Shown in pieces: positions 10,212-61,342 of a stretch of DNA of 64,000 nucleotides. The stretch lies in the IMG/VR virus record IMGVR_UViG_3300022666_000111, one strand, 5' to 3'. How positions within the stretch are numbered: position 1 is the stretch's first letter; each line of letters opens with the position of its first letter. The DNA comes from a virus. Taxonomy: Duplodnaviria > Caudoviricetes. Under the pieces are notes generated by a model, which worked only from the letters and a program-made list of their open reading frames with translations, searched no databases and was not told the origin of the DNA. The position numbers and the translations under genes were made by a program.

Positions 10212-10904
10212 CTAGAAAAGGTCTTCGTCCATGAGCTTGTCGTAAGCGGTGTGGACGGGGTCGGCGGTCATCCGCGTTGGGGCGACGATCGCGTAGTTCC
10301 AATCGTTGTACAATTCGGGGAGGGCGACCTGGATGAATTCGGGCTCGTTATGAGGGTACGGGCTTCGGGGGAGCCCGAGCGTAACCACGGGGATACGGGC
10401 CATCCTTCCGGGGGCTTCTTCGATGGTGCTTAGGGATGCCACAATCCTGTAAGACTTGCGCATATCCGGGGGCGCCCAGATTTGACCCTCTTCGACGGTG
10501 TGGCAGAGCACGCATTCGTAGTAGAGGTGCTGCTCCTGCGGATCGTCGTAGGACGACGCGAGGTTGCGTCGTTGGAGGTTGTAGCCCTCCCCGTAATGCA
10601 CGCCGACGCCGATGCGGGGTTTCATGAGGTGGATGACGCCTTCGGAATCCCGAAGCCAGCATTCCTTCGTGATCGGCTTTCTGGGGTCAAAGCTAACGTG
10701 CCCCTCATAGACCCAGCCCCGGGCGCCTACGAGAATGAAGCCTCTCCGGAGGTCCGTATTCGAGACACGGACCTCGATGAGGTCACCAATAGGCTCGGGG
10801 CCGAGGATCTGTAGGGTAGCCTGGTCGACGGTGACGAAGTCGATGTCGTGCGACTTGTTTTGGTCGTAGATGTTGAGGATCCGGTGCCGGAGGGTCTTTC
10901 TCAC
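10212..10904 (-). CDS. hypothetical protein
   Basis: 230-aa ORF coupled to the CCA gene; ends TAYDKLMDEDLF. Confidence 0.65.
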   Translation of the reverse strand: MRKTLRHRILNIYDQNKSHDIDFVTVDQATLQILGPEPIGDLIEVRVSNTDLRRGFILVGARGWVYEGHVSFDPRKPITKECWLRDSEGVIHLMKPRIGVGVHYGEGYNLQRRNLASSYDDPQEQHLYYECVLCHTVEEGQIWAPPDMRKSYRIVASLSTIEEAPGRMARIPVVTLGLPRSPYPHNEPEFIQVALPELYNDWNYAIVAPTRMTADPVHTAYDKLMDEDLF

Positions 10905-12247
10905 GGGATCTCCTTGGCGAGGCGGAGGAGGGTTTCACGTTCGTTGAGGGAGGGGTCGTCGGTCACGGATTCGAGGAGTGCATTGAGGACGCGGCCGACG
11001 CGGGGGCCTGGGGCGATCCCGAGGGCCTCCATGACGTCGCGGCCGTTGATGACGAGGACCTTCGTGGAAGTTGGGATGGTCTCCGTCACGCTCATCCGTG
11101 CGACCCGATCGCGGAGGGCGTCGATGAGCGTCTCCTCCAGGGCGACCTTGGCGGGGCCTTTGCCGTCGATGTCTGCGTGGGCCAAGGTGCAGAAGTCGGG
11201 GACGTTGTCGAGCCCAACCTTGCGGACCCAGCGGCGGACGGCGGGGGCGCCGTGGTCAGCTTCGTAGCGGATGTAGTGGTGCCGCACGAAGTGAACGATC
11301 GCTTCCAAGTCTTCCGTGGCGAATCGCAGCCGGGTCAAGATCTCCCGCGTCATGTCAGCCCCTACGACCTCGTGGTTGTAGAAGGTTGCGTCTCCTGTCA
11401 CCGGGTGGGCCTCCTTCACGGCGGGCTTGCCGATGTCATGGAATAGGGCGGCGAAGCGCAGCAAGGGCTTCGTAGCCGGGACACGGTCAAGCGTAACCAA
11501 GGTGTGCTCCCACACGTCGAAGGCGTGGTACTTGTTCTGGGCGCACCCAAAGCTCGCCTTGAATTCCGGAATGAAGACCTCGAGCATCCCCGTCTCCGCC
11601 ATGACGCGGAAGGCGACCGAAGGCTTGACCGAGCCCTTCATGATCTTGAAGAGTTCGTCGTGGACGCGCTCGATCGAGACTTTCGAGAAGACTTCGAGGT
11701 TTGGGCGAATACCCTCGAGGGTCTCGGGTTCGATGCTGAAGCCCAGGGTTGCCGCGAATCGGGCGGCGCGCATGACGCGCAAGCCGTCCTCGTGGAACCT
11801 GCGGCGGGGGTCGCCTACGGCTCGGATGACTTTGTTTGCGATGTCGGCCATACCTCCGAAGGGGTCGACGGTTCGGTCGTCGATCGGGTCGTAGGCGATG
11901 GCGTTCATGGTGAAGTCGCGCCGGGCCAGGTCGTCTTCGATCCGGTCGAGGAAGCTCACAGCGTCGGGGCGTCGTCCGTCCGTGTAGTCCCCGTCCCCAC
12001 GGTACGTCGTCACCTCGAAACCGGTACCGTCCACGATGGCCGTCACGGTTCCATGTTGGATGCCGGTCAGGATGACACGGGGGAAAATGCGGAGCATGAC
12101 TTCTGGGCGGGCGTTGGTAGCGATGTCCCAGTCATGGGCTTCTCGGCCCATGATGAAGTCGCGGATAGCGCCACCGACCAGGAAGGCTTCGTAGCCCTCA
12201 CGGCGGAGGGTCTGGCAGATACGGAGTGCTTCGGGAGGGATTTGCAT
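10901..12247 (-). CDS. cca: CCA tRNA nucleotidyltransferase with HD domain
   Basis: LVGGAIRD, DWDIAT, DLARRDFTMNA, EDGLRVMRAARF, ALFHDIGK; ATG 33 nt after TTGATC. Confidence 0.93.
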   Translation of the reverse strand: MQIPPEALRICQTLRREGYEAFLVGGAIRDFIMGREAHDWDIATNARPEVMLRIFPRVILTGIQHGTVTAIVDGTGFEVTTYRGDGDYTDGRRPDAVSFLDRIEDDLARRDFTMNAIAYDPIDDRTVDPFGGMADIANKVIRAVGDPRRRFHEDGLRVMRAARFAATLGFSIEPETLEGIRPNLEVFSKVSIERVHDELFKIMKGSVKPSVAFRVMAETGMLEVFIPEFKASFGCAQNKYHAFDVWEHTLVTLDRVPATKPLLRFAALFHDIGKPAVKEAHPVTGDATFYNHEVVGADMTREILTRLRFATEDLEAIVHFVRHHYIRYEADHGAPAVRRWVRKVGLDNVPDFCTLAHADIDGKGPAKVALEETLIDALRDRVARMSVTETIPTSTKVLVINGRDVMEALGIAPGPRVGRVLNALLESVTDDPSLNERETLLRLAKEIP

Positions 12248-12276
12248 GGCTCTTGTATGCCGAGCCTCACGGGTGA

Positions 12277-12807
12277 TCAACCCCAATAAACGTAGAGGCC
12301 CTCTTGGAGGCTCGGGATGATCTCTGGTACACCGGCAAGGATGCAGAGGCCGACGACGCCGGGCGAGATTTGTCCGAGGGCGTAGGGATAGAGCCCGTGG
12401 GTGACCTTGTGAAAGCGGGGGCGCTGGCTGTGCCGTTCGGTCTCCTCAATCCAATCCAGCGTTGTGTCGTAGCGGAACCACGATTTGTACTCCAAGGGAT
12501 CGATGAAGAGGGTGAGCCGTTTGAGCCCGAATTCCGGATCGTGCATGACGCATTGGCTCATGCTGTGGAAGGCAGGCTTGTGCTCGGCGGCAATCGCGAT
12601 GTAGAGACTCACGTTGGAAAGCGGTGACTCCCGGGAGTAGCGTGTATCCTTGGGCGCTGGGGTAGCGGCGGCCACGGCGTCCTTGTTCTTCCGGAGCCAC
12701 TTGAGATACTTGGGAAAGTCCATGGCGTAGAGCATCTCCGAGGTCTCTTCGGAGATCTTAGCCTTTCGCGTAGCCCAGCCGATTGCCTTATGGACGCGGA
12801 TTCCCAT
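12277..12807 (-). CDS. hypothetical protein
   Basis: 176-aa ORF with GGAGGAG RBS. Confidence 0.65.
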   Translation of the reverse strand: MGIRVHKAIGWATRKAKISEETSEMLYAMDFPKYLKWLRKNKDAVAAATPAPKDTRYSRESPLSNVSLYIAIAAEHKPAFHSMSQCVMHDPEFGLKRLTLFIDPLEYKSWFRYDTTLDWIEETERHSQRPRFHKVTHGLYPYALGQISPGVVGLCILAGVPEIIPSLQEGLYVYWG

Positions 12808-28490: not shown

Positions 28491-28956
28491 TGGTTCATGT
28501 CTCCGAGAGGTTTCTCTTCCGGGGCTGGTATGCCGGTGGGGTAGAGGGATCAACGTATTTGGGGTGGGGAAATGAATTTGACCGTGAAATCAGATGCTGT
28601 CTTGGCGATCATTGATGCAGAGGTATTGGGACCGAGGGCACCCAGAAAACCGTTGATCACGGAGCCCGTCCGGCATGTTGGGCACATGGAGAGCATCGAC
28701 TTCCAAATCGCAAGAATGGCCCAGGCTTTTGACCTTGGAATCAGCGACGAAGTCGCTGTGAGCATCCTGGCTAAGGATGACATCACGGGGGCCGCCGCCT
28801 TCTACATCATCCAGGCTGCGCACCTGCTATCAAACGATCGCGGGTGAATTCCCTGGCGCCAAGGTTCGGAACGGTGTAGGTAATGCCCGTGCCGTAACTT
28901 TGGCCCACACGGGCATGCTGGCAACACTTGGCGGCTTCGGCCGCATGGAGGATCAA

Positions 28957-30540
28957 ATGGCAAGCAAGATTCTGTTCCCAGGGGCGAAGCCGTCTGTTCA
29001 GGCGGCGGACACGGTCAACGAGGCGGGTGGGGCGGCGTACCAGATGACGCCAAAGATGGCCCTGGCTCAATTGGCGGTGACGGGGTGCCTGTCCAATACG
29101 TACTACGTGTCGGACAAGATGCAGCTCGAGGCCGTCTTGAACGCAGCCGTCGCGTGCGATCCGGAGTACGTTGCGAAGGTGGCGCTCTACGCACACGAGA
29201 AGGGCTTCATGAAGGACATGCCTGCGGTTCTTGCGGCCTACCTGGCTGCGATGAATGGGGCGCTCCTCGAGCCCATCTTCCCGCGTGTCATCAACAACGG
29301 CAAGATGCTCCGCAACTTCGTCCAGGTCATCCGGTCTGGCGCGTTGGGGCGCAAGAGCTTCGGAACGCGTCCGAAGAGGATGATCCAGAGCTGGTTCGAG
29401 AGCCGTAAGGACGGCGTGGTCTTCACGAACTCCACGGGTAACGATCCGTCGATGGCGGACGTTATCAAGCTCATCCGGCCGGTTCCGGGGACGGTGGAGC
29501 GTTCGGCGCTCTATGCCTACCTGCTTGGGAAGGACAAGTTCAAGTTCCAGGGGCAGGAGCTGGTGACGTCGGAGCATGTTCCGGAAGAGGTCAAGAGCTT
29601 CCTGGCATTCAAGGCGGACCCGGCCAAGGTTGCTGTCCCGGAGAAGGGTGTCCCCTTCGAGATGCTCGTCGGTGTTGAGGGCATCACGGAGAAGGGCTGG
29701 AAGCAGCTTGCGGAGAGGGCTACGTGGACGCAGCTCCGTATGAACCTCAACACGTTCCTGCGTCACGGGGTCTTCTCGGACAAGAGGCTCACCAAGAAGC
29801 TGGCCGACAAGCTCGGATCGGCGGAAGAGGTTGCGAAGGCACACTGCTTCCCCTACCAGCTCCTGGCGGCCTACAAGAACGTGGGTACGGAGATGCCCAC
29901 GGAGATCACCCTGGCGTTGCAGGACGCCTTGGAGGCTGCTACCAAGAACATCCCGGTGTTCGCGGGTTCGGTCGTGATTTGCCCGGACGTTTCGGGCTCC
30001 ATGTCAGCCTACGTCACGGGACGTCAGGGCAGCAAGACGCCTTCGAAGGTCACCTGCATTGACGTTGCAGCCTTGGTTGCAGCGAGCGTCTTGAGGACCA
30101 ACCAGACTGCGAGGGTCATCCCCTTCGAGCAGAGCGTGGTTGGCGTCAAGGTCAATCCTCGCGATTCGGTCATGACGAACGCGCAGAAGCTTTCGTCCAT
30201 CGGCGGAGGCGGGACCAACTGCTCGGCGCCCCTGGCCTTGCTCAACAAGGAGAACGCCGCGCCGGATGTGGTCATCTTCATCTCGGACTACGAGTCATGG
30301 GTTGATCGTGAGTACGGGCACGGTACTGGGATGCTCACGGAGTGGCAGCAGATCGTCAAGCGTAACCCCAAGGCCAAGCTGATCTGCATCGACGTGACGC
30401 CTTCGTCCACGCACCAGGTCCCAAGTCGTCCTGGGATCCTTCAGGTCGGCGGGTTCTCGGACGAGGTCTTCAACGTCATCGGGGCCTTCGTCTCCGGCGA
30501 CGCCTCGAGTTGGGTTGCCTCGATCGAATCCTACAAATAG
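28957..30540 (+). CDS. Ro60/Rsr TROVE-vWA RNA-binding protein
   Basis: NEAGGAAY, LAQLAVTGC, MKDMPA, MLRNFVQ, LRMNLNTFLRHG, FPYQL, vWA DVSGSM, GGGTNC, SDYESW. Confidence 0.93.
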   Translation: MASKILFPGAKPSVQAADTVNEAGGAAYQMTPKMALAQLAVTGCLSNTYYVSDKMQLEAVLNAAVACDPEYVAKVALYAHEKGFMKDMPAVLAAYLAAMNGALLEPIFPRVINNGKMLRNFVQVIRSGALGRKSFGTRPKRMIQSWFESRKDGVVFTNSTGNDPSMADVIKLIRPVPGTVERSALYAYLLGKDKFKFQGQELVTSEHVPEEVKSFLAFKADPAKVAVPEKGVPFEMLVGVEGITEKGWKQLAERATWTQLRMNLNTFLRHGVFSDKRLTKKLADKLGSAEEVAKAHCFPYQLLAAYKNVGTEMPTEITLALQDALEAATKNIPVFAGSVVICPDVSGSMSAYVTGRQGSKTPSKVTCIDVAALVAASVLRTNQTARVIPFEQSVVGVKVNPRDSVMTNAQKLSSIGGGGTNCSAPLALLNKENAAPDVVIFISDYESWVDREYGHGTGMLTEWQQIVKRNPKAKLICIDVTPSSTHQVPSRPGILQVGGFSDEVFNVIGAFVSGDASSWVASIESYK

Positions 30541-30956: not shown

Positions 30957-31214
30957 ATGGCGACGGTCTACAAGATCCGGGACAAGGCAACGGGGCTTTT
31001 CTCAACGGGAGGCTACAACCCAACCTTCGAGAAGAAGGGCAAGGAGTGGAAGGCGTTACAGCACGTCCGTAGCCACCTGACGCAGCTATCGGCTAGCTGG
31101 ATCGGCCCCAAGAAAGCCATCCCGCCCTCTTGGGAGATCGTGGAGTACGAGGTCGTCAAGACGGAAGTAGGGGTCCTCCCCGCTCTGCCCTACCGGAAAG
31201 AGAGAACGCGATGA
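30957..31214 (+). CDS. hypothetical protein
   Basis: 85-aa ORF with GAGGT RBS. Confidence 0.65.
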   Translation: MATVYKIRDKATGLFSTGGYNPTFEKKGKEWKALQHVRSHLTQLSASWIGPKKAIPPSWEIVEYEVVKTEVGVLPALPYRKERTR

Positions 31215-32308
31215 CATTCGAATGGAACATGCCTCCAGGGGCGCTCCCCTGGGTGAAAGACCGGACCTTCTACCTTACGCGCCACGGATCGCACGCCTAT
31301 GGCACGAACCTCCCGACATCCGATATGGACATCCGGGGGATCTGCATCGCGCCCAAGGAGTACTACCTCGGCTACGACCTTCACTTCGATCAGACGTCGT
31401 CGGCGACAACCTCTGACGACGTGGCCCCGGACTTCGTCATCTTCGAGCTTCGCAAGTTCATGAAGCTCGCGGCGGTTTGCAATCCGAACGCCTTGGAGAT
31501 CATCTTCACGGATCCTTCGGATCACCTGTTCGTGACGGCGACATCGAAGCGGCTTTTTGAATGCCGCGACATGTTCCTCTCGCGTTTGGCCTTGAGAACG
31601 TTCTCGGGGTATGCCGCGTCGCAGATGCGGCGGATTGAGGGGCACTACCGATGGCTCAAGAATCCTCCAACCAAGAAGCCGGAGCGATCGGACTTTGAAT
31701 TGCCGCCCCAACCGGAGATCCCAACGGAGCAATTGGAGGCCGTCAACGCCGGGATCCAGAAGAAGCTCGACCAATGGAACATGAATTTCCTCCAAGACCT
31801 TGAGCCCGCCTACCGGATCGAGATCAAGGAGGCCATGTTCGAGATGCTCACCGAGATGCAGATCCACATGGACGACTTGTGGAAGGGCGCGGCGAGGTCC
31901 TTCGGTTTCGACGAGAACTTCATCGAGTATCTCAAGCGGGAGCGTCAATTCACGGCGAAGGCCCGGGAGTGGAAGAAGTATCAGAAGTGGCTCAAGGAGC
32001 GAAACCCTGCGCGGGCCGCCTTGGAGGCAAAGTGGGGCTACGATACGAAGCACGCCATGCACCTCATCCGGCTCTTGCGAATGTGCCGGGAGATCCTAAC
32101 GGAGGGCGTCTTGCGGGTACGGCGCCCAGACGCGGCCGAGCTTCTTGAGGTGCGTAACGGCGCCTGGAGCTACGAGAGCCTCGTTGCTTGGGCAAACCAG
32201 CAAAACTACGAGCTTGCCCAGATCGTTCTAACCAGCCCTCTTCCCGCAAGGCCGGACAACCGTGCTCTTGACTCCCTCTGCATTGAGCTTGTCTCTTCGG
32301 CCCTTTAG
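31211..32308 (+). CDS. Pol-beta superfamily nucleotidyltransferase (RlaP-like, RNA repair)
   Basis: GSHAYGTNLPTSDMDIRG, NPNALE, GYDTKHAMHLIRLL. Confidence 0.88.
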   Translation: MTFEWNMPPGALPWVKDRTFYLTRHGSHAYGTNLPTSDMDIRGICIAPKEYYLGYDLHFDQTSSATTSDDVAPDFVIFELRKFMKLAAVCNPNALEIIFTDPSDHLFVTATSKRLFECRDMFLSRLALRTFSGYAASQMRRIEGHYRWLKNPPTKKPERSDFELPPQPEIPTEQLEAVNAGIQKKLDQWNMNFLQDLEPAYRIEIKEAMFEMLTEMQIHMDDLWKGAARSFGFDENFIEYLKRERQFTAKAREWKKYQKWLKERNPARAALEAKWGYDTKHAMHLIRLLRMCREILTEGVLRVRRPDAAELLEVRNGAWSYESLVAWANQQNYELAQIVLTSPLPARPDNRALDSLCIELVSSAL

Positions 32309-52932: not shown

Positions 52933-53038
52933 CTAGGAAAGGATGAAGATGTCAACGTATCCAGGTAGCAATGGCGGCAAGTGGCAGTAGGTTTAGAATC
53001 CCCTTGATGGTTCTAAGCCAGGGTAGCACACTGGCTGA

Positions 53039-53479
53039 ATGAAGACGTGTACGGCTTGCGGCAGATCCAAGGTAGAGAGCGAGTTCAGTCGAAATAGGAC
53101 CAAAAAGGACGGGCTGCAATGCCGGTGTAAGGAATGCAGTAGATCGGTCGCCAAGGACCACTACACGAACAACACGAACTACTACAAGGAAAGGAACAAG
53201 ACCGCGCGAAAGAGACTGCTGGACACGGTGCAACAGATCAAGGATCGCCCTTGCCAGGATTGTGGTGGCAGCTTCCCTCCCTATGTGATGGATTTTGACC
53301 ATCGAGATGGTACAACCAAGACGGGTGGTATAGCATCCCTCGTCAAGCATCTTGGGTCGATACAGCAGGTTCTTCTGGAGGTGTCCAAATGTGATGTCGT
53401 GTGCGCCAACTGCCACCGTATCCGGACACATGCGCGACTTTCGGGAGCTTGTACGAAATCGTCAAAGCGTTTCAAGTAA
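53039..53479 (+). CDS. HNH-type endonuclease with N-terminal Zn finger
   Basis: CTACG...CKEC; MDFDH...KCDVVCANCHRIRT. Confidence 0.85.
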   Translation: MKTCTACGRSKVESEFSRNRTKKDGLQCRCKECSRSVAKDHYTNNTNYYKERNKTARKRLLDTVQQIKDRPCQDCGGSFPPYVMDFDHRDGTTKTGGIASLVKHLGSIQQVLLEVSKCDVVCANCHRIRTHARLSGACTKSSKRFK

Positions 53480-53480
53480 T

Positions 53481-53551
53481 TGAGGCATCGTCCAATGGTA
53501 GGACACCCGGCTCTGACCCGGTGAATTTAGGTTCAACTCCTTATGCCTCAG
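53481..53551 (+). tRNA. tRNA-Gln(CUG)
   Basis: cloverleaf; loop CTCTGAC. Confidence 0.85.
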
Positions 53552-54215: not shown

Positions 54216-54288
54216 GCTGATGATGCTCGTAAGGACGAGCGCCGCATTCGTAAAGCGGACCAAGCGGGTTCGATTCCCGCCATCAGCT
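54216..54288 (+). tRNA. tRNA-Thr(CGU)
   Basis: cloverleaf; loop TTCGTAA. Confidence 0.85.
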
Positions 54289-54470: not shown

Positions 54471-54543
54471 GACGCCGAATGCAGGTAGGAGTACATTCGA
54501 TTCGTACTCGACAAACCCTCTTACCGTCCCACTTGACGGCGTC
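54471..54543 (+). ncRNA. Y-RNA-like element Y2 (anticodon stem-loop cargo)
   Basis: GACGCCG-AATG...GGAGTACAT-TCGA[TTCGTAC]TCGA...CTTGA-CGGCGTC. Confidence 0.75.
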
Positions 54544-54548
54544 TATTT

Positions 54549-54619
54549 GGTTCTGTCGGCTAACAGTAAGCCATCCTCCCGGAGGGAGGGGAATGCAGGT
54601 TCATCTCCTGCCGGAGCCC
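54549..54619 (+). tRNA. atypical or pseudo tRNA
   Basis: cloverleaf with non-canonical anticodon loop CCGGAGG and T-loop TTCATCT. Confidence 0.45.
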
Positions 54620-54623
54620 CCAT

Positions 54624-54694
54624 GGTCCCATCGACTAGCGGTAGGTCACCACCCTTTCAAGGTGTGAACACGGGTTCGATTCCCGTTGGGATCG
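54624..54694 (+). tRNA. tRNA-Glu(UUC)
   Basis: cloverleaf; loop CTTTCAA. Confidence 0.9.
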
Positions 54695-54698
54695 CTAT

Positions 54699-54774: not shown

Positions 54775-54775
54775 A

Positions 54776-54915
54776 GTATCGAATGCGGTAGGGACTACAC
54801 GTCTCCCGCCACCCGCCCTTGAGGTCGCCTTCGAGGTCGGATGGGGAGATGCGTGAGCTACCCGGTTCCAACCCGGGCCAGCAGCGACATTGTCTTGGCC
54901 ACGTCTTGTCGATAC
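54776..54915 (+). ncRNA. Y-RNA-like element Y3
   Basis: GTATCGA-ATG...GGGACTACAC...GTCTT...CTTG-TCGATAC. Confidence 0.75.
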
Positions 54916-54919
54916 TCTT

Positions 54920-54991
54920 AGGTGCGTCATCCAACGGCTAGGATGCTGGTTTCCAACTCCAGTCATGAGGGTTCAAATCCTTCCGCGCCTG
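54920..54991 (+). tRNA. tRNA-Trp(CCA)
   Basis: cloverleaf; loop TTCCAAC. Confidence 0.75.
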
Positions 54992-54992
54992 C

Positions 54993-55144
54993 TGCGACGA
55001 ATGCTTGTGAGGATTACATTCCCTTCTAAGGACGTGGACCCTGTTCGAATCAGGGCTGGGGCACCAAGGCGCAAGCCTAGCAACATGCCTCGGAGGTGTA
55101 CTGGCTGCACACGAAAACAGTCTTCGCGCCTCTTTGTCGTCGCA
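54993..55144 (+). ncRNA. Y-RNA-like element Y4 (permuted tRNA-Arg(UCU) cargo)
   Basis: TGCGACGA-ATG...CTTCTAA, T-arm, CTGGGGC-ACCA, linker, GCCTCGG, D-arm...TTTG-TCGTCGCA. Confidence 0.8.
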
Positions 55145-55149
55145 ACAAC

Positions 55150-55377
55150 TTCACCGAATGCCTTGAGGGTCTACACTCAAATGAGGCCGGTTTCGTTCAA
55201 GAGCTGGTGCTATGTTGGTGGCACCGAGTCAACACGCAGTAGCTTTGACTCCCAGAGGGTGGGCTTAGAGGCAGCCATCCCTTAAAGAAAGCGTAGCAGC
55301 TCACTGGGATAGCCAGACGTGAAGGCCGCTCTTGGCCGGACTGGTTTAACACTGACTCTCGCACATTTGTCGGTGGA
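55150..55377 (+). ncRNA. Y-RNA-like element Y5 carrying a 23S rRNA L11-binding domain mimic
   Basis: TTCACCGA-ATG...GAGGGTC-TACAC...GACTCTC...TTTG-TCGGTGGA. Confidence 0.75.
55251..55308 (+). other. 58-nt mimic of 23S rRNA H43/H44 (nt 1051-1108)
   Basis: CCCAGAGGGTGGGCTTAGAGGCAGCCATCCCTTAAAGAAAGCGTAGCAGCTCACTGGG. Confidence 0.88.
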
Positions 55378-57522: not shown

Positions 57523-57585
57523 CCTCGAATGCTTGTTGGGAGTACATTTGCGAACATGACCCTCTCAACGAATCCCTTGTCGAGG
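57523..57585 (+). ncRNA. Y-RNA-like element Y6 (minimal)
   Basis: CCTCGA-ATG...GTTGGGAG-TACAT...CTCTCAAC...CTTG-TCGAGG. Confidence 0.75.
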
Positions 57586-57848: not shown

Positions 57849-58004
57849 ATCGCAGATGAATGCAGGGACTACATTTGGAAAACCCGTGCCCTAACGGGCG
57901 GGCAGGTTCGAATCCTGTCGGATCGGCGCAAGCTGGTCCGTGGCGGAGCTGGCAGACGCGCGGGTGCCGCAAGGCATGCTGTCTCTCAAATCCCTTGCTG
58001 CGAT
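57849..58004 (+). ncRNA. Y-RNA-like element Y7 (permuted tRNA-Ser(GGA) cargo)
   Basis: ATCGCAG...GAATG...GGGACTACAT-TTGGAAA-ACCCG, variable arm, T-arm, capped acceptor, D-arm, CGGGT...CTTG-CTGCGAT. Confidence 0.85.
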
Positions 58005-58029: not shown

Positions 58030-58860
58030 ATGGCTTTCCCGAATGCGATCCCCGAGCGTGAGCAGTACATCCTCCAGCAGGTCCAAGCGGGTAACTTCGA
58101 AGCCCGATGGTCTTCGATCGTTTCAACCGCAGGGGACCACACGGCCGTCTTCATCGTCATGGCGGATGCCCTCAAGGTTGACGGCGTCCGGGTCAACGTT
58201 TCAGCCAGGCTGGAACAACAGATCGCGGACGTCCTCAACGCCTCGCTCTTGACGCCGAAGCTCGCCGACCTCATTTGGGCACAGCGCCTTGTCGACGTTG
58301 CCCCCAAGCCTCGAGCGATCACGTCCTCAACTCAAGCCATGCTGGCTCAAAGCCAAGCCTTGGACGCCGCCGTAGCGGGGCAGGACGGGCTTGTTTGCAC
58401 GGTAGGGAAGCATTGGGTCATTGACAAAGACCTCGCGGCTCATCCGGGCAAGGCGGAGAACTACGGCTGGCACTTCCACGGCTCGAGCTTTCAAGGGATC
58501 ACCGGAGAGGTTTGCGCCTCCCTCATGAAGGGTCCCAACGGCGCCTACGTCCGGCTCATCCAAGGACGCGGGTGGGCGCATGATATGAGCCACGTTGACT
58601 ACAGCCAGAATTGCGTGCTTGTCGCCAAGCAATGCTGGGTTGACGGCGCTTTGATGAACCTCTCGGACGTCTTGACCAACCCCGACCTTGCCGCCCTGGC
58701 AAGCCACAACGGGGTCACGACGATCCTTCGGCAGCCCGGGGTCGACACACTTGAATCCATCGAGTACGACCTCGTAGCCTTCCCCGAGGGCCTTGCGCTC
58801 TCGTCACCCCCTGACGGATTCCCGCAATGGGTTCTGGACCTTCTCGGCACTTCATGTTGA
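58030..58860 (+). CDS. hypothetical protein
   Basis: 276-aa ORF with GC3-rich codon usage. Confidence 0.75.
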   Translation: MAFPNAIPEREQYILQQVQAGNFEARWSSIVSTAGDHTAVFIVMADALKVDGVRVNVSARLEQQIADVLNASLLTPKLADLIWAQRLVDVAPKPRAITSSTQAMLAQSQALDAAVAGQDGLVCTVGKHWVIDKDLAAHPGKAENYGWHFHGSSFQGITGEVCASLMKGPNGAYVRLIQGRGWAHDMSHVDYSQNCVLVAKQCWVDGALMNLSDVLTNPDLAALASHNGVTTILRQPGVDTLESIEYDLVAFPEGLALSSPPDGFPQWVLDLLGTSC

Positions 58861-58894
58861 CCGTAGCCTAGTGGTAAGGCGCCTTGACTTTGAA
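58857..58894 (+). pseudogene. tRNA-Gln(UUG) 5' half
   Basis: TTGACCG acceptor strand, D-arm, CTTGA-CTTTGAA, then truncated. Confidence 0.7.
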
Positions 58895-59425: not shown

Positions 59426-59467
59426 GTTGTGGCCCTAAAGATGGGAGTTCGATTCTCCTCCGTCACA
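59397..59467 (+). tRNA. tRNA-His(GUG)
   Basis: cloverleaf; loop TTGTGGC; overlaps the HNH 3' end. Confidence 0.8.
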
Positions 59468-59492
59468 CCGGGTTCGATTCCCGTCGGTCGAC
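59468..59492 (+). pseudogene. tRNA-Gln 3' fragment
   Basis: T-arm plus CGGTCGA, complementary to TTGACCG at 58857. Confidence 0.65.
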
Positions 59493-60350: not shown

Positions 60351-60417
60351 GGGAGAGGCTGTCCCCGTCTGCCTGTCACGCAGAAGATCGCGGGTTCAAA
60401 TCCCGTTGGTTCCGCCA
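60341..60417 (+). tRNA. tRNA-Asp(GUC)
   Basis: cloverleaf; loop CTGTCAC; encoded CCA. Confidence 0.85.
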
Positions 60418-60551
60418 CGATGAATGCTGCTGGGATTACACTATCCACCCTGGATGTCGCGGGTTCAAGTCCCGTCGCTCGGCCTAGCCGGGTGTGGACC
60501 AGATGGTAGGTCGCCAGGCCAAAACGAATCTCTGCGCGTCTTGTCATCGTG
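60416..60551 (+). ncRNA. Y-RNA-like element Y8 (permuted tRNA cargo, UCC/Gly-like)
   Basis: CACGATGA-ATG...GGGATTACAC-TATCCAC-CCTGG, T-arm, CGCTCGG/CCGGGTG, D-arm, CCAGG...CTTG-TCATCGTG. Confidence 0.85.
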
Positions 60552-60630: not shown

Positions 60631-60765
60631 GACGAATGATCGGTGGACTACACTACCAAGGGGTTCCAACCCCGGCGCCTTGTGGGGGCAGATCCCACCG
60701 TGTTCTGCTTGCGGAGCACGACCGGCATTTAGAAGGGCGCCATACGTCTACCAACCCTTGTCGTC
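60631..60765 (+). ncRNA. Y-RNA-like element Y9
   Basis: GACGA-ATG...GGTGGAC-TACAC...GTCTACC...CTTG-TCGTC. Confidence 0.75.
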
Positions 60766-60847: not shown

Positions 60848-61342
60848 ATGCTTGCCTGCGTCGATGTTCACTACTTGCCGAACGACGAAGCTCGGGCAGC
60901 CTGCATCATCTTTCCGGATCCTGCAACCGACGTTGTTGCTTGGTCCGGCACGGTGATGGTTCAAGGCGTCGCCCCGTACGTCCCGGGGGCCTTCTATCAG
61001 CGAGAGCTGCCTTGCCTCAAGGCGATCCTCGCGAGGGCACCGGACTTCGATACGATCTTCGTGGATAGCTACGTCAACCTCGGCTCCAAGCCTGGGATGG
61101 GGCAGTACTTGTACGACCTCTATGGGGGCCGCATCGCGGTCATAGGGGTCGCCAAGACGCTCTTCGCGGGCGCACCCTCAGCGGTTGTATCACGCAACGG
61201 GGCGAGCCCCTTGTATGTGACGGCCGCTGGAAAATCCCTTGCGGAGGCTGTGCGAATTGTGACGAGTATGCACGGTCCCTACCGCCTTCCGACACTTCTC
61301 AAGCGCGTTGACTCCCTGTGTCGCGGGCTTGGGCAACCGTAG
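60848..61342 (+). CDS. endonuclease V-like protein
   Basis: CVDVHY, PYVPGAFYQRELP, VDSY, IGVAK, HGPYRLPTLLKRVD. Confidence 0.85.
   Translation: MLACVDVHYLPNDEARAACIIFPDPATDVVAWSGTVMVQGVAPYVPGAFYQRELPCLKAILARAPDFDTIFVDSYVNLGSKPGMGQYLYDLYGGRIAVIGVAKTLFAGAPSAVVSRNGASPLYVTAAGKSLAEAVRIVTSMHGPYRLPTLLKRVDSLCRGLGQP

What the first reader, a model, noticed from the sequence alone, without database searches (positions are those of the whole stretch)
54471..54543. Minimal Y elements displaying only an anticodon-like loop
Seen: Y2 cargo is TCGA-TTCGTAC-TCGA, a 7-nt loop with U33 and CGU matching the nearby tRNA-Thr(CGU) loop TTCGTAA. Y6 (57523) has TTGCGAA in the same position. Y3 and Y9 both carry GG-TTCCAAC-CC hairpins, identical in loop to tRNA-Trp at 54920, though these could be T-loop variants. 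Inference: the functional payload may be the anticodon loop itself, which fits a nuclease-decoy role.
Basis: partly seen in the sequence, partly recalled or inferred. Interest (0 to 1): 0.7.

Follow-up and report, generated by a model that had tools for sequence, protein, structure and literature searches.

The report
Phage Y RNA with anticodon-like tip
This 73-base RNA gene in a large phage's tRNA cluster is a stripped-down "Y RNA", a likely partner of the phage's own Ro60 protein, whose tip copies a threonine-tRNA anticodon loop; anticodon-type tips recur far above chance in related phage and bacterial RNAs, but a decoy role against tRNA-cutting enzymes is untested.

Summary
Y2 (54471-54543) is a minimal YrlB-type Y RNA: a Ro60-binding handle topped by a 4-bp hairpin with a 7-nt loop, UUCGUAC, identical to loops of real tRNA-Thr(CGU) genes. 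The window encodes Ro60 (28777-30540). Of 201 non-redundant minimal homologues, 67 carry a YU-NNN-R 7-nt hairpin here (1.8 expected); an independent viral set gave 7 of 31 (0.3 expected). Stems covary, A34 is avoided, and loops match real tRNA loops above a column-shuffle null. Two long neighbours explain the origin: Y4 and Y7 re-permute into tRNA-Arg(UCU) and tRNA-Ser(GGA). The other examples are weaker. Y6's loop is 8 nt and out of register, Y9's 7-nt reading is not the favoured fold, and Y3 is ambiguous. The design is not phage-specific: 91 of 100 bacterial loci with this RNA family lie beside Ro60, about half beside RtcB/RtcA/RtcR. Loops lean towards known nuclease targets (Ser-NGA, Tyr, A36-A37), which fits bait for anticodon nucleases, but nothing shows binding, cleavage or expression. 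I found no paper describing the feature; this scan has already noted it in other genomes.

The parts
54471..54543 (+). Y2: minimal Y RNA (terminal 7-bp helix, CGAAUG bulge, 8-bp inner helix, UACA, apical hairpin); follows tRNA-Glu(CUC) directly
   Evidence: (MFE -23.1, z -2.9)
54475..54482 (+). GCCGAATG, the GNCGAAN0-1G putative Ro60-binding motif of Y2
   Evidence: sequence; motif definition PMC4201824
54497..54511 (+). Y2 apical hairpin: 4-bp stem plus 7-nt Thr(CGU)-type anticodon loop (54501-54507)
   Evidence: identical loop in two tRNA-Thr(CGU) genes of the reference set
54216..54288 (+). phage tRNA-Thr(CGU), loop TTCGTAA with an unpaired 31-39 position
   Evidence: (Rfam tRNA 40.1 bits)
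57523..57585 (+). Y6: second minimal Y RNA; 3-bp hairpin with 8-nt loop, anticodon-like letters out of register; weak YrlB match
   Evidence: (22.9 bits, gathering 97)
54993..55144 (+). Y4: Y RNA carrying a circularly permuted tRNA-Arg(UCU); its anticodon arm (loop 55023-55029) follows UACA, the position of Y2's hairpin
   Evidence: re-joined pieces are called tRNA-Arg(tct) by ARAGORN; the native order is not called
57851..58002 (+). Y7: Y RNA carrying a circularly permuted class II tRNA-Ser(GGA), opened just 5' of the loop (57875-57881)
   Evidence: re-joined pieces called tRNA-Ser(gga); native order not called
54775..54916 (+). Y3: long Y RNA; 5-bp hairpin with loop TTCCAAC at 54866-54872, T-loop variant or Trp-loop copy (unresolved)
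60631..60765 (+). Y9: long Y RNA; TTCCAAC at 60664 lies at T-arm spacing, 7-nt register not favoured
60416..60551 (+). Y8: YrlA-type Y RNA (V, T, acceptor, D order), the best Rfam anchor for the array
   Evidence: RF02553, 35.8 bits, E 2e-6, gathering 69
28777..30540 (+). phage Ro60/Rsr gene (587 aa), presumed binding partner, 24 kb upstream on the same strand
   Evidence: vWA_Ro60 E 1.7e-20; D. radiodurans Rsr 2nvo E 1e-17; phiLo Ro60 9kop E 5e-13

Best explanation
Y2 is a minimal Y RNA. It is probably cut out of the tRNA-cluster transcript, docks on the phage's Ro60 through its CGAAUG handle, and displays a bare anticodon stem-loop. That hairpin is the remnant of a circularly permuted tRNA whose T, acceptor and D arms were lost, and selection has kept the loop tRNA-like while the stem drifted. 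The most likely reader is an anticodon-directed nuclease, so the Ro60-stabilised hairpin would act as bait: a competing substrate, or a cleavable and repairable sentinel within tRNA-damage and repair systems. Shown by computation here: Y-RNA architecture, Ro60 in the genome, the family-wide anticodon consensus with covarying stems, the permuted-tRNA relatives and the repair-operon context.
For: Only 7-nt loops are enriched among loop sizes 4-10 (101 of 201 against 27), and 67 fit YU-NNN-R against 1.8 in shuffles. An independent viral set gave 7 of 31 against 0.3. Loops picked by sequence alone have flanks paired at 82/87/89% against 43/38/59% when 3' arms are swapped between RNAs. A34 occurs in 4 of 69 against a 32% A background (p 2e-7), and 41 of 69 loops are identical to common tRNA loops against 24.9 by column permutation. 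In long homologues the loop lies 14-15 nt before the T loop in 27 of 33 cases, the tRNA spacing. Y4 and Y7 re-permute into tRNAs. The loop spectrum is biased: A36-A37 in 32 of 69 against 98 of 741 tRNAs, Ser-NGA 14 of 71 against 21 of 741, Tyr-GUA 8 of 71 against 17 of 741. Ser-NGA is cut inside the anticodon by VapC and avoided by phage tRNAs (PMC10264068). Trp, Tyr, Cys and Phe tRNAs are cut between two adenines when the rsr-yrlBA-rtcBA operon is induced (PMC7790460). Ro60 lies beside 91 of 100 bacterial loci, RtcB 54, RtcA 42, RtcR 40.
Against: No binding, cleavage or expression data (one search is inconclusive). About two thirds of minimal Y RNAs fail the strict test, including Y6. Y2's loop is U32/C38, while most family loops are C32/A38, and Thr is not enriched (5 of 71 against 38 of 741). 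Y2 lacks the U36-A-A-U sequence shared by AriB targets, and AriB barely cuts tRNA-Thr(CGU) in vitro (PMC12409363). P2-OLD rescue was by replacement, and extra host tRNA-Thr gave little protection (PMC12445682). Spectrum p-values ignore relatedness among sequences, and the reference tRNAs are rich in phage genes that avoid Ser-NGA.
Confidence: 0.45

Rival explanations
1. Adaptor: the hairpin tethers a non-nuclease anticodon-arm reader (RNA ligase or RlaP-type repair enzyme, MiaA/TsaD/Tgt-type modifier, synthetase, PNPase) to Ro60, as other Y RNAs tether PNPase.
For: Tethering is the established Y-RNA function (PMC4201824; phiLo Yrl1/2 bind PNPase, PMC12135203). A36-A37 and U36-A37 are also the signatures of i6A and t6A modification (own knowledge). 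The window encodes RlaP and a CCA-adding-like enzyme.
Against: The anticodon varies widely across RNAs (about 30 types), more than one enzyme's specificity would need; no partner was identified.
Confidence: 0.25
2. Structural cap or vestige: the loop is a leftover of tRNA ancestry, or merely a stable U-turn cap, with no specific reader.
For: Direct descent from permuted tRNAs is visible in Y4 and Y7. Many members are degenerate (6-, 8- and 9-nt loops). Salmonella YrlB has a 6-nt pyrimidine loop here.
Against: Stems have diverged with compensation while loops kept tRNA rules, including wobble-position A avoidance and whole-loop identity, in phages and many bacterial lineages.
Confidence: 0.2
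3. T-loop mimic: the hairpins are T-arm variants (elbow mimicry as in YrlA), not anticodon arms.
For: Y9's hairpin sits at T-arm spacing (11 nt after UACA; family T-loop offsets cluster at 9-15 and 19-26) and abuts an acceptor-like helix; Y3's has a G-C closed 5-bp stem.
Against: Y2's loop lacks A58 and its T-loop register has probability 0.01. C57 occurs in 0 of 170 Y-RNA T-loops and 1 of 746 tRNA T-loops, so TTCCAAC is a poor T-loop too.
Confidence: 0.07
4. Chance: a short palindrome closing a loop that happens to look like an anticodon loop.
For: For Y2 alone the hairpin is weak (z -0.1) and nine elements were available to choose from.
Against: 1.2% per-element chance, and a 37-fold family enrichment at the same position.
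Confidence: 0.03

Closest known systems
YrlB-type stand-alone Y RNAs (S. Typhimurium YrlB, Rfam RF02565; M. smegmatis YrlB; D. radiodurans Yrn2; Chen et al. 2014, PMC4201824)
   Same: Size, GNCGAAUG motif, terminal and inner helices, UACAU followed by a short hairpin, 3' UUGUCG-type strand (alignment of Y6).
   Different: [quoted passage not shown] Y2 has a 7-nt Thr(CGU)-type loop and gives no YrlB hit.
YrlA (Rfam RF02553; structure 6cu1, bioRxiv 10.1101/312249)
   Same: Same Ro60 module and conserved UA; permuted-tRNA origin; Y8 follows this plan.
   Different: YrlA mimics the T/D elbow and is stated to lack the anticodon loop; Y2 lacks T, D and acceptor arms and keeps only the anticodon arm.
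Thermus phage phiLo Ro60 with Yrl1/Yrl2 (PMC12135203)
   Same: Phage-encoded Ro60 with small CGAA-motif RNAs; the protein is homologous (E 5e-13).
   Different: Two RNAs adjacent to the gene, shown to bind Ro60 and damp host PNPase; the paper never mentions anticodons. Here nine RNAs lie in a tRNA array 24-30 kb away.
rsr-yrlBA-rtcBA / RtcR RNA-repair operon (Hughes et al. 2020, PMC7790460)
   Same: Bacterial homologues of Y2 lie in such operons; the authors suggested YrlA might competitively inhibit the anticodon nuclease.
   Different: No RtcB, RtcA or RtcR match in this window; YrlA was not a substrate there, and no anticodon-bearing Y RNA was described.
Nuclease-resistant phage tRNAs (PMC10264068; PARIS AriB PMC12409363; P2-OLD PMC12445682)
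   Same: Same conflict over anticodon arms; the phage's Thr and Trp tRNAs have unpaired 31-39 positions.
   Different: Those are functional tRNAs that evade cleavage and replace host tRNA; Y2 cannot be charged or decode.

Membership tests
Bacterial/phage Y RNA (Yrl class) | 5' GNCGAAN0-1G motif | tested here: met
   Y2 has GCCGAATG; Y9 meets it; Y3 and Y6 lack the first G
Bacterial/phage Y RNA (Yrl class) | Long stem from pairing of 5' and 3' ends around the motif | tested here: met
   terminal helix 95.5% paired, 6 of 7 pairs with two-sided changes across 14 homologues
Bacterial/phage Y RNA (Yrl class) | Conserved YUAY opening the apical domain | tested here: inconclusive
   UAC is present in all nine elements, but Y2 and Y6 read GUAC
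Bacterial/phage Y RNA (Yrl class) | Ro60/Rsr encoded in the same genome, same strand | tested here: met
   the gene is 24 kb away, whereas Chen et al. usually found under 4 kb; bacterial homologues lie a median 157 nt from Ro60
Bacterial/phage Y RNA (Yrl class) | Expressed and bound by Ro60 | not testable with these tools
   only assembled contigs were available
YrlB (RF02565) | Rfam gathering score of 97 bits | tested here: not met
   Y2 no hit; Y6 22.9 bits. Filed as YrlB-type in architecture, not as an RF02565 member
YrlA (RF02553) | T arm, closed acceptor stem and D arm | tested here: not met
   absent from Y2 and Y6; present in Y8, below gathering
tRNA anticodon arm | 7-nt loop with Y32, U33, R37 | tested here: met
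   Y2; family 67 of 201; not met by Y6
tRNA anticodon arm | 5-bp stem | tested here: not met
   Y2 has 4 bp; family mode is 4 bp (34 of 69), 5 or more in 15
tRNA T arm | G53-UUCRA-NY-C61 loop | tested here: not met
   Y2 lacks A58; Y3 and Y9 have C57, seen in 0 of 170 Y T-loops and 1 of 746 tRNA T-loops
Anticodon-nuclease decoy | Binds or is cut by the nuclease and spares host tRNA | not testable with these tools
   needs biochemistry; only indirect spectrum and context evidence

The most novel reading that the evidence does not exclude
Phages and bacteria use Ro60 as a display platform for interchangeable anticodon stem-loops that act as decoys or sentinels for tRNA-cutting toxins and defence nucleases: an RNA-based anti-nuclease module whose loop repertoire records the nucleases each lineage meets.
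Probability: 0.3. Interest if true: 0.85.

Novelty: new variant of a known kind. Interest (0 to 1): 0.55.

Why it matters
The function of bacterial and phage Y RNAs outside Deinococcus is an open question, and the literature describes them as T/D-elbow mimics that lack an anticodon loop. A widespread subclass that keeps only the anticodon arm, in phages and in tRNA-damage-induced repair operons, links Ro60 directly to the anticodon-nuclease conflict. It gives a simple test: swap a 7-nt loop on a 70-nt RNA. The loop spectrum could also point to unknown nuclease specificities. The Y2 element itself is a somewhat atypical member.

Tried and rejected
No whole genome is held, so other tRNAs or repair genes of the phage could not be checked. 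The first loose pattern scan was mostly chance matches and was replaced by stricter patterns plus helix filters. A search for Y3/Y9 orthologues with the TTCCAAC hairpin gave three matches, none with a clear Y handle, so the T-loop versus Trp-loop question stays open. The idea that loops are copied from the same genome's tRNAs was not supported: 13 of 39 share an anticodon with a local tRNA, and stems mostly differ (loci are partial). The idea that handles ending in GAG go with Thr loops was not supported (3 Thr among 12 strict loops). Sequencing runs: X1 and X2 hold Y2 without differences but are probably DNA and may be the source; metatranscriptome contigs from a second study cover parts of Y3, tRNA-Trp and Y4 at low depth, which does not show expression; the depth peak at 55056-55339 is host rRNA mapping to Y5's insert. 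ViennaRNA does not recover Y4's tRNA-like fold, so Y4 rests on re-permutation and not on energy. Six literature searches found no description of anticodon-bearing minimal Y RNAs; the library is incomplete, and I did not read the Sim and Wolin 2018 review.

Full report
Setting. The finding lies in a dense + strand tRNA array (27 ARAGORN calls at 52.5-64 kb) of a large phage-like sequence; matching runs are wastewater metagenomes. Nine elements share a handle of terminal helix, GAATG, inner helix, TACA, variable part and TTG-type 3' strand. Y8 matches Rfam YrlA (35.8 bits) and Y6 weakly matches YrlB (22.9 bits), both below gathering. The window encodes a Ro60 orthologue at 28777-30540, plus RlaP and a CCA-adding-like enzyme. 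The 'Y elements' are therefore Y RNAs of the Yrl class, with the GNCGAAN0-1G and YUAY motifs of Chen et al. (PMC4201824).

The observation. Y2 folds as a 7-bp terminal helix, an 8-bp inner helix and a 4-bp hairpin with loop UUCGUAC (pair probabilities above 0.9; the rival T-loop register 0.01). The loop reads U32 U33 CGU A37 C38. It differs by one base from the local tRNA-Thr(CGU) loop and is identical to two tRNA-Thr(CGU) loops in my reference set. Y6 carries anticodon-like letters in an 8-nt loop, so it is out of register. Y3 and Y9 carry the same heptamer as the phage's tRNA-Trp loop. It is a poor T-loop (C57 in 0 of 170 Y T-loops and 1 of 746 tRNA T-loops). But in Y9 it sits at T-arm spacing and the 7-nt register is not the favoured fold; in Y3 it closes a 5-bp stem at the 3' end of the cargo. 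I leave Y3 unresolved and do not count Y9.

The decisive test. I collected homologues with patterns that fix only the handle, filtered them by helix formation and removed near-duplicates, leaving 475 RNAs. The filter is validated by context: 91 of 100 bacterial loci and 75 of 103 metagenome loci contain a Ro60 gene, almost always on the same strand and 100-160 nt away. Among 201 minimal RNAs only 7-nt loops are enriched (101 against 27). Sixty-seven have YU-NNN-R loops against 1.8 in shuffles, and the excess holds separately in viral, genome and metagenome sets. A later, independent viral set gave 7 of 31 against 0.3. Choosing loops by sequence alone, and only where the stem lies outside the fixed UACAU, flanks pair at 82, 87 and 89%; swapping 3' arms between RNAs gives 43, 38 and 59%. 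The loops follow tRNA rules beyond a generic U-turn: A34 is avoided (4 of 69), and 41 of 69 equal common tRNA loops against 24.9 by column permutation. About two thirds of minimal members still fail the strict test.

Origin. In longer homologues that have both this hairpin and a T arm, 27 of 33 show the 14-15 nt spacing of tRNA, and 14 of 33 give an ARAGORN tRNA with that anticodon when rotated; the unrotated homologues I checked are not called. In this window Y4 re-joins into tRNA-Arg(UCU) and Y7 into tRNA-Ser(GGA). So the hairpin after UACA is, by descent, an anticodon arm of a circularly permuted tRNA, and minimal RNAs such as Y2 are most simply derivatives that lost the other arms (inference). 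This differs from the published YrlA model, in which the position is a variable arm and the anticodon loop is absent (10.1101/312249).

Function. The loops are biased towards A36-A37 (46% against 13%), Ser-NGA and Tyr-GUA; these tests ignore relatedness and use a phage-rich reference. Such tRNAs are known nuclease targets (PMC10264068, PMC7790460). Bacterial members lie with RtcB (54 of 100), RtcA (42) and RtcR (40), an operon switched on by anticodon cleavage. Against a simple phage decoy: the feature is at least as frequent in bacterial genomes (28 of 74 minimal RNAs) as in viral contigs (17 of 77); Y2 lacks the AriB target sequence; and OLD rescue was shown not to be competitive. An adaptor for a repair or modifying enzyme (0.25) and a structural vestige (0.2) remain open. 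No expression or binding evidence exists.

Novelty. Y RNAs, phage Ro60 and tRNA mimicry are known (PMC4201824, PMC12135203). An anticodon-only subclass was not found in the papers I could search. This scan's notes list 22 findings in at least 20 genomes under the same search words, five of the eight shown describing this design; those are unchecked AI notes and are not used as support. Verdict: real feature, new variant of a known kind, mechanism untested; interest 0.55.

Noticed in passing
window 55242-55313 (inside Y5, 55150-55377): 72-nt piece matching bacterial 23S rRNA model positions 1083-1154 (62.1 bits, above gathering; by my recollection the L11/GTPase-centre region) carried as cargo on a Y handle; host rRNA contigs map here with loose ends.
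   Followed up: partly
window 52989-53499: HNH-like ORF (53039-53479) between tRNA genes is replaced by 26 nt in contigs of two runs, so it looks like a mobile insertion polymorphic among strains.
   Followed up: partly
window 58856-58894 and 59467-59492: Apparent tRNA-Gln(UUG) split after its anticodon loop by an HNH-like ORF and tRNA-His; the two acceptor strands still pair (seen in the sequence).
   Followed up: no
window 54624-54695: ARAGORN calls SeC(UCA), but the stem places a CTTTCAA loop in register, i.e. tRNA-Glu(UUC).
   Followed up: no
window 54549-54622: Degenerate tRNA-like gene right after Y2 (ARAGORN Ser-GGA, no Rfam hit; aberrant anticodon and T loops).
   Followed up: no
window 54216-54288 and 54920-54992: Phage tRNA-Thr(CGU) and tRNA-Trp both have an unpaired 31-39 position (A-A, U-U), a possible nuclease-evasion change.
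   Followed up: no
window 10901-12286 (-), 31130-32308 (+), 60851-61342 (+): CCA-adding/poly(A)-polymerase-like protein with HD domain, RlaP nucleotidyltransferase and endonuclease V: an RNA-handling toolkit beside Ro60.
   Followed up: partly
L280-L399 (bacterial genomes): Minimal and permuted-tRNA Y RNAs, often several in tandem, beside rsr, rtcB, rtcA and rtcR in Planctomycetota, Acidobacteria, Verrucomicrobia, Myxococcota and Proteobacteria.
   Followed up: yes
window 54796-54855 (Y3 cargo): Long, stable irregular hairpin of unknown origin; no Rfam match.
   Followed up: no
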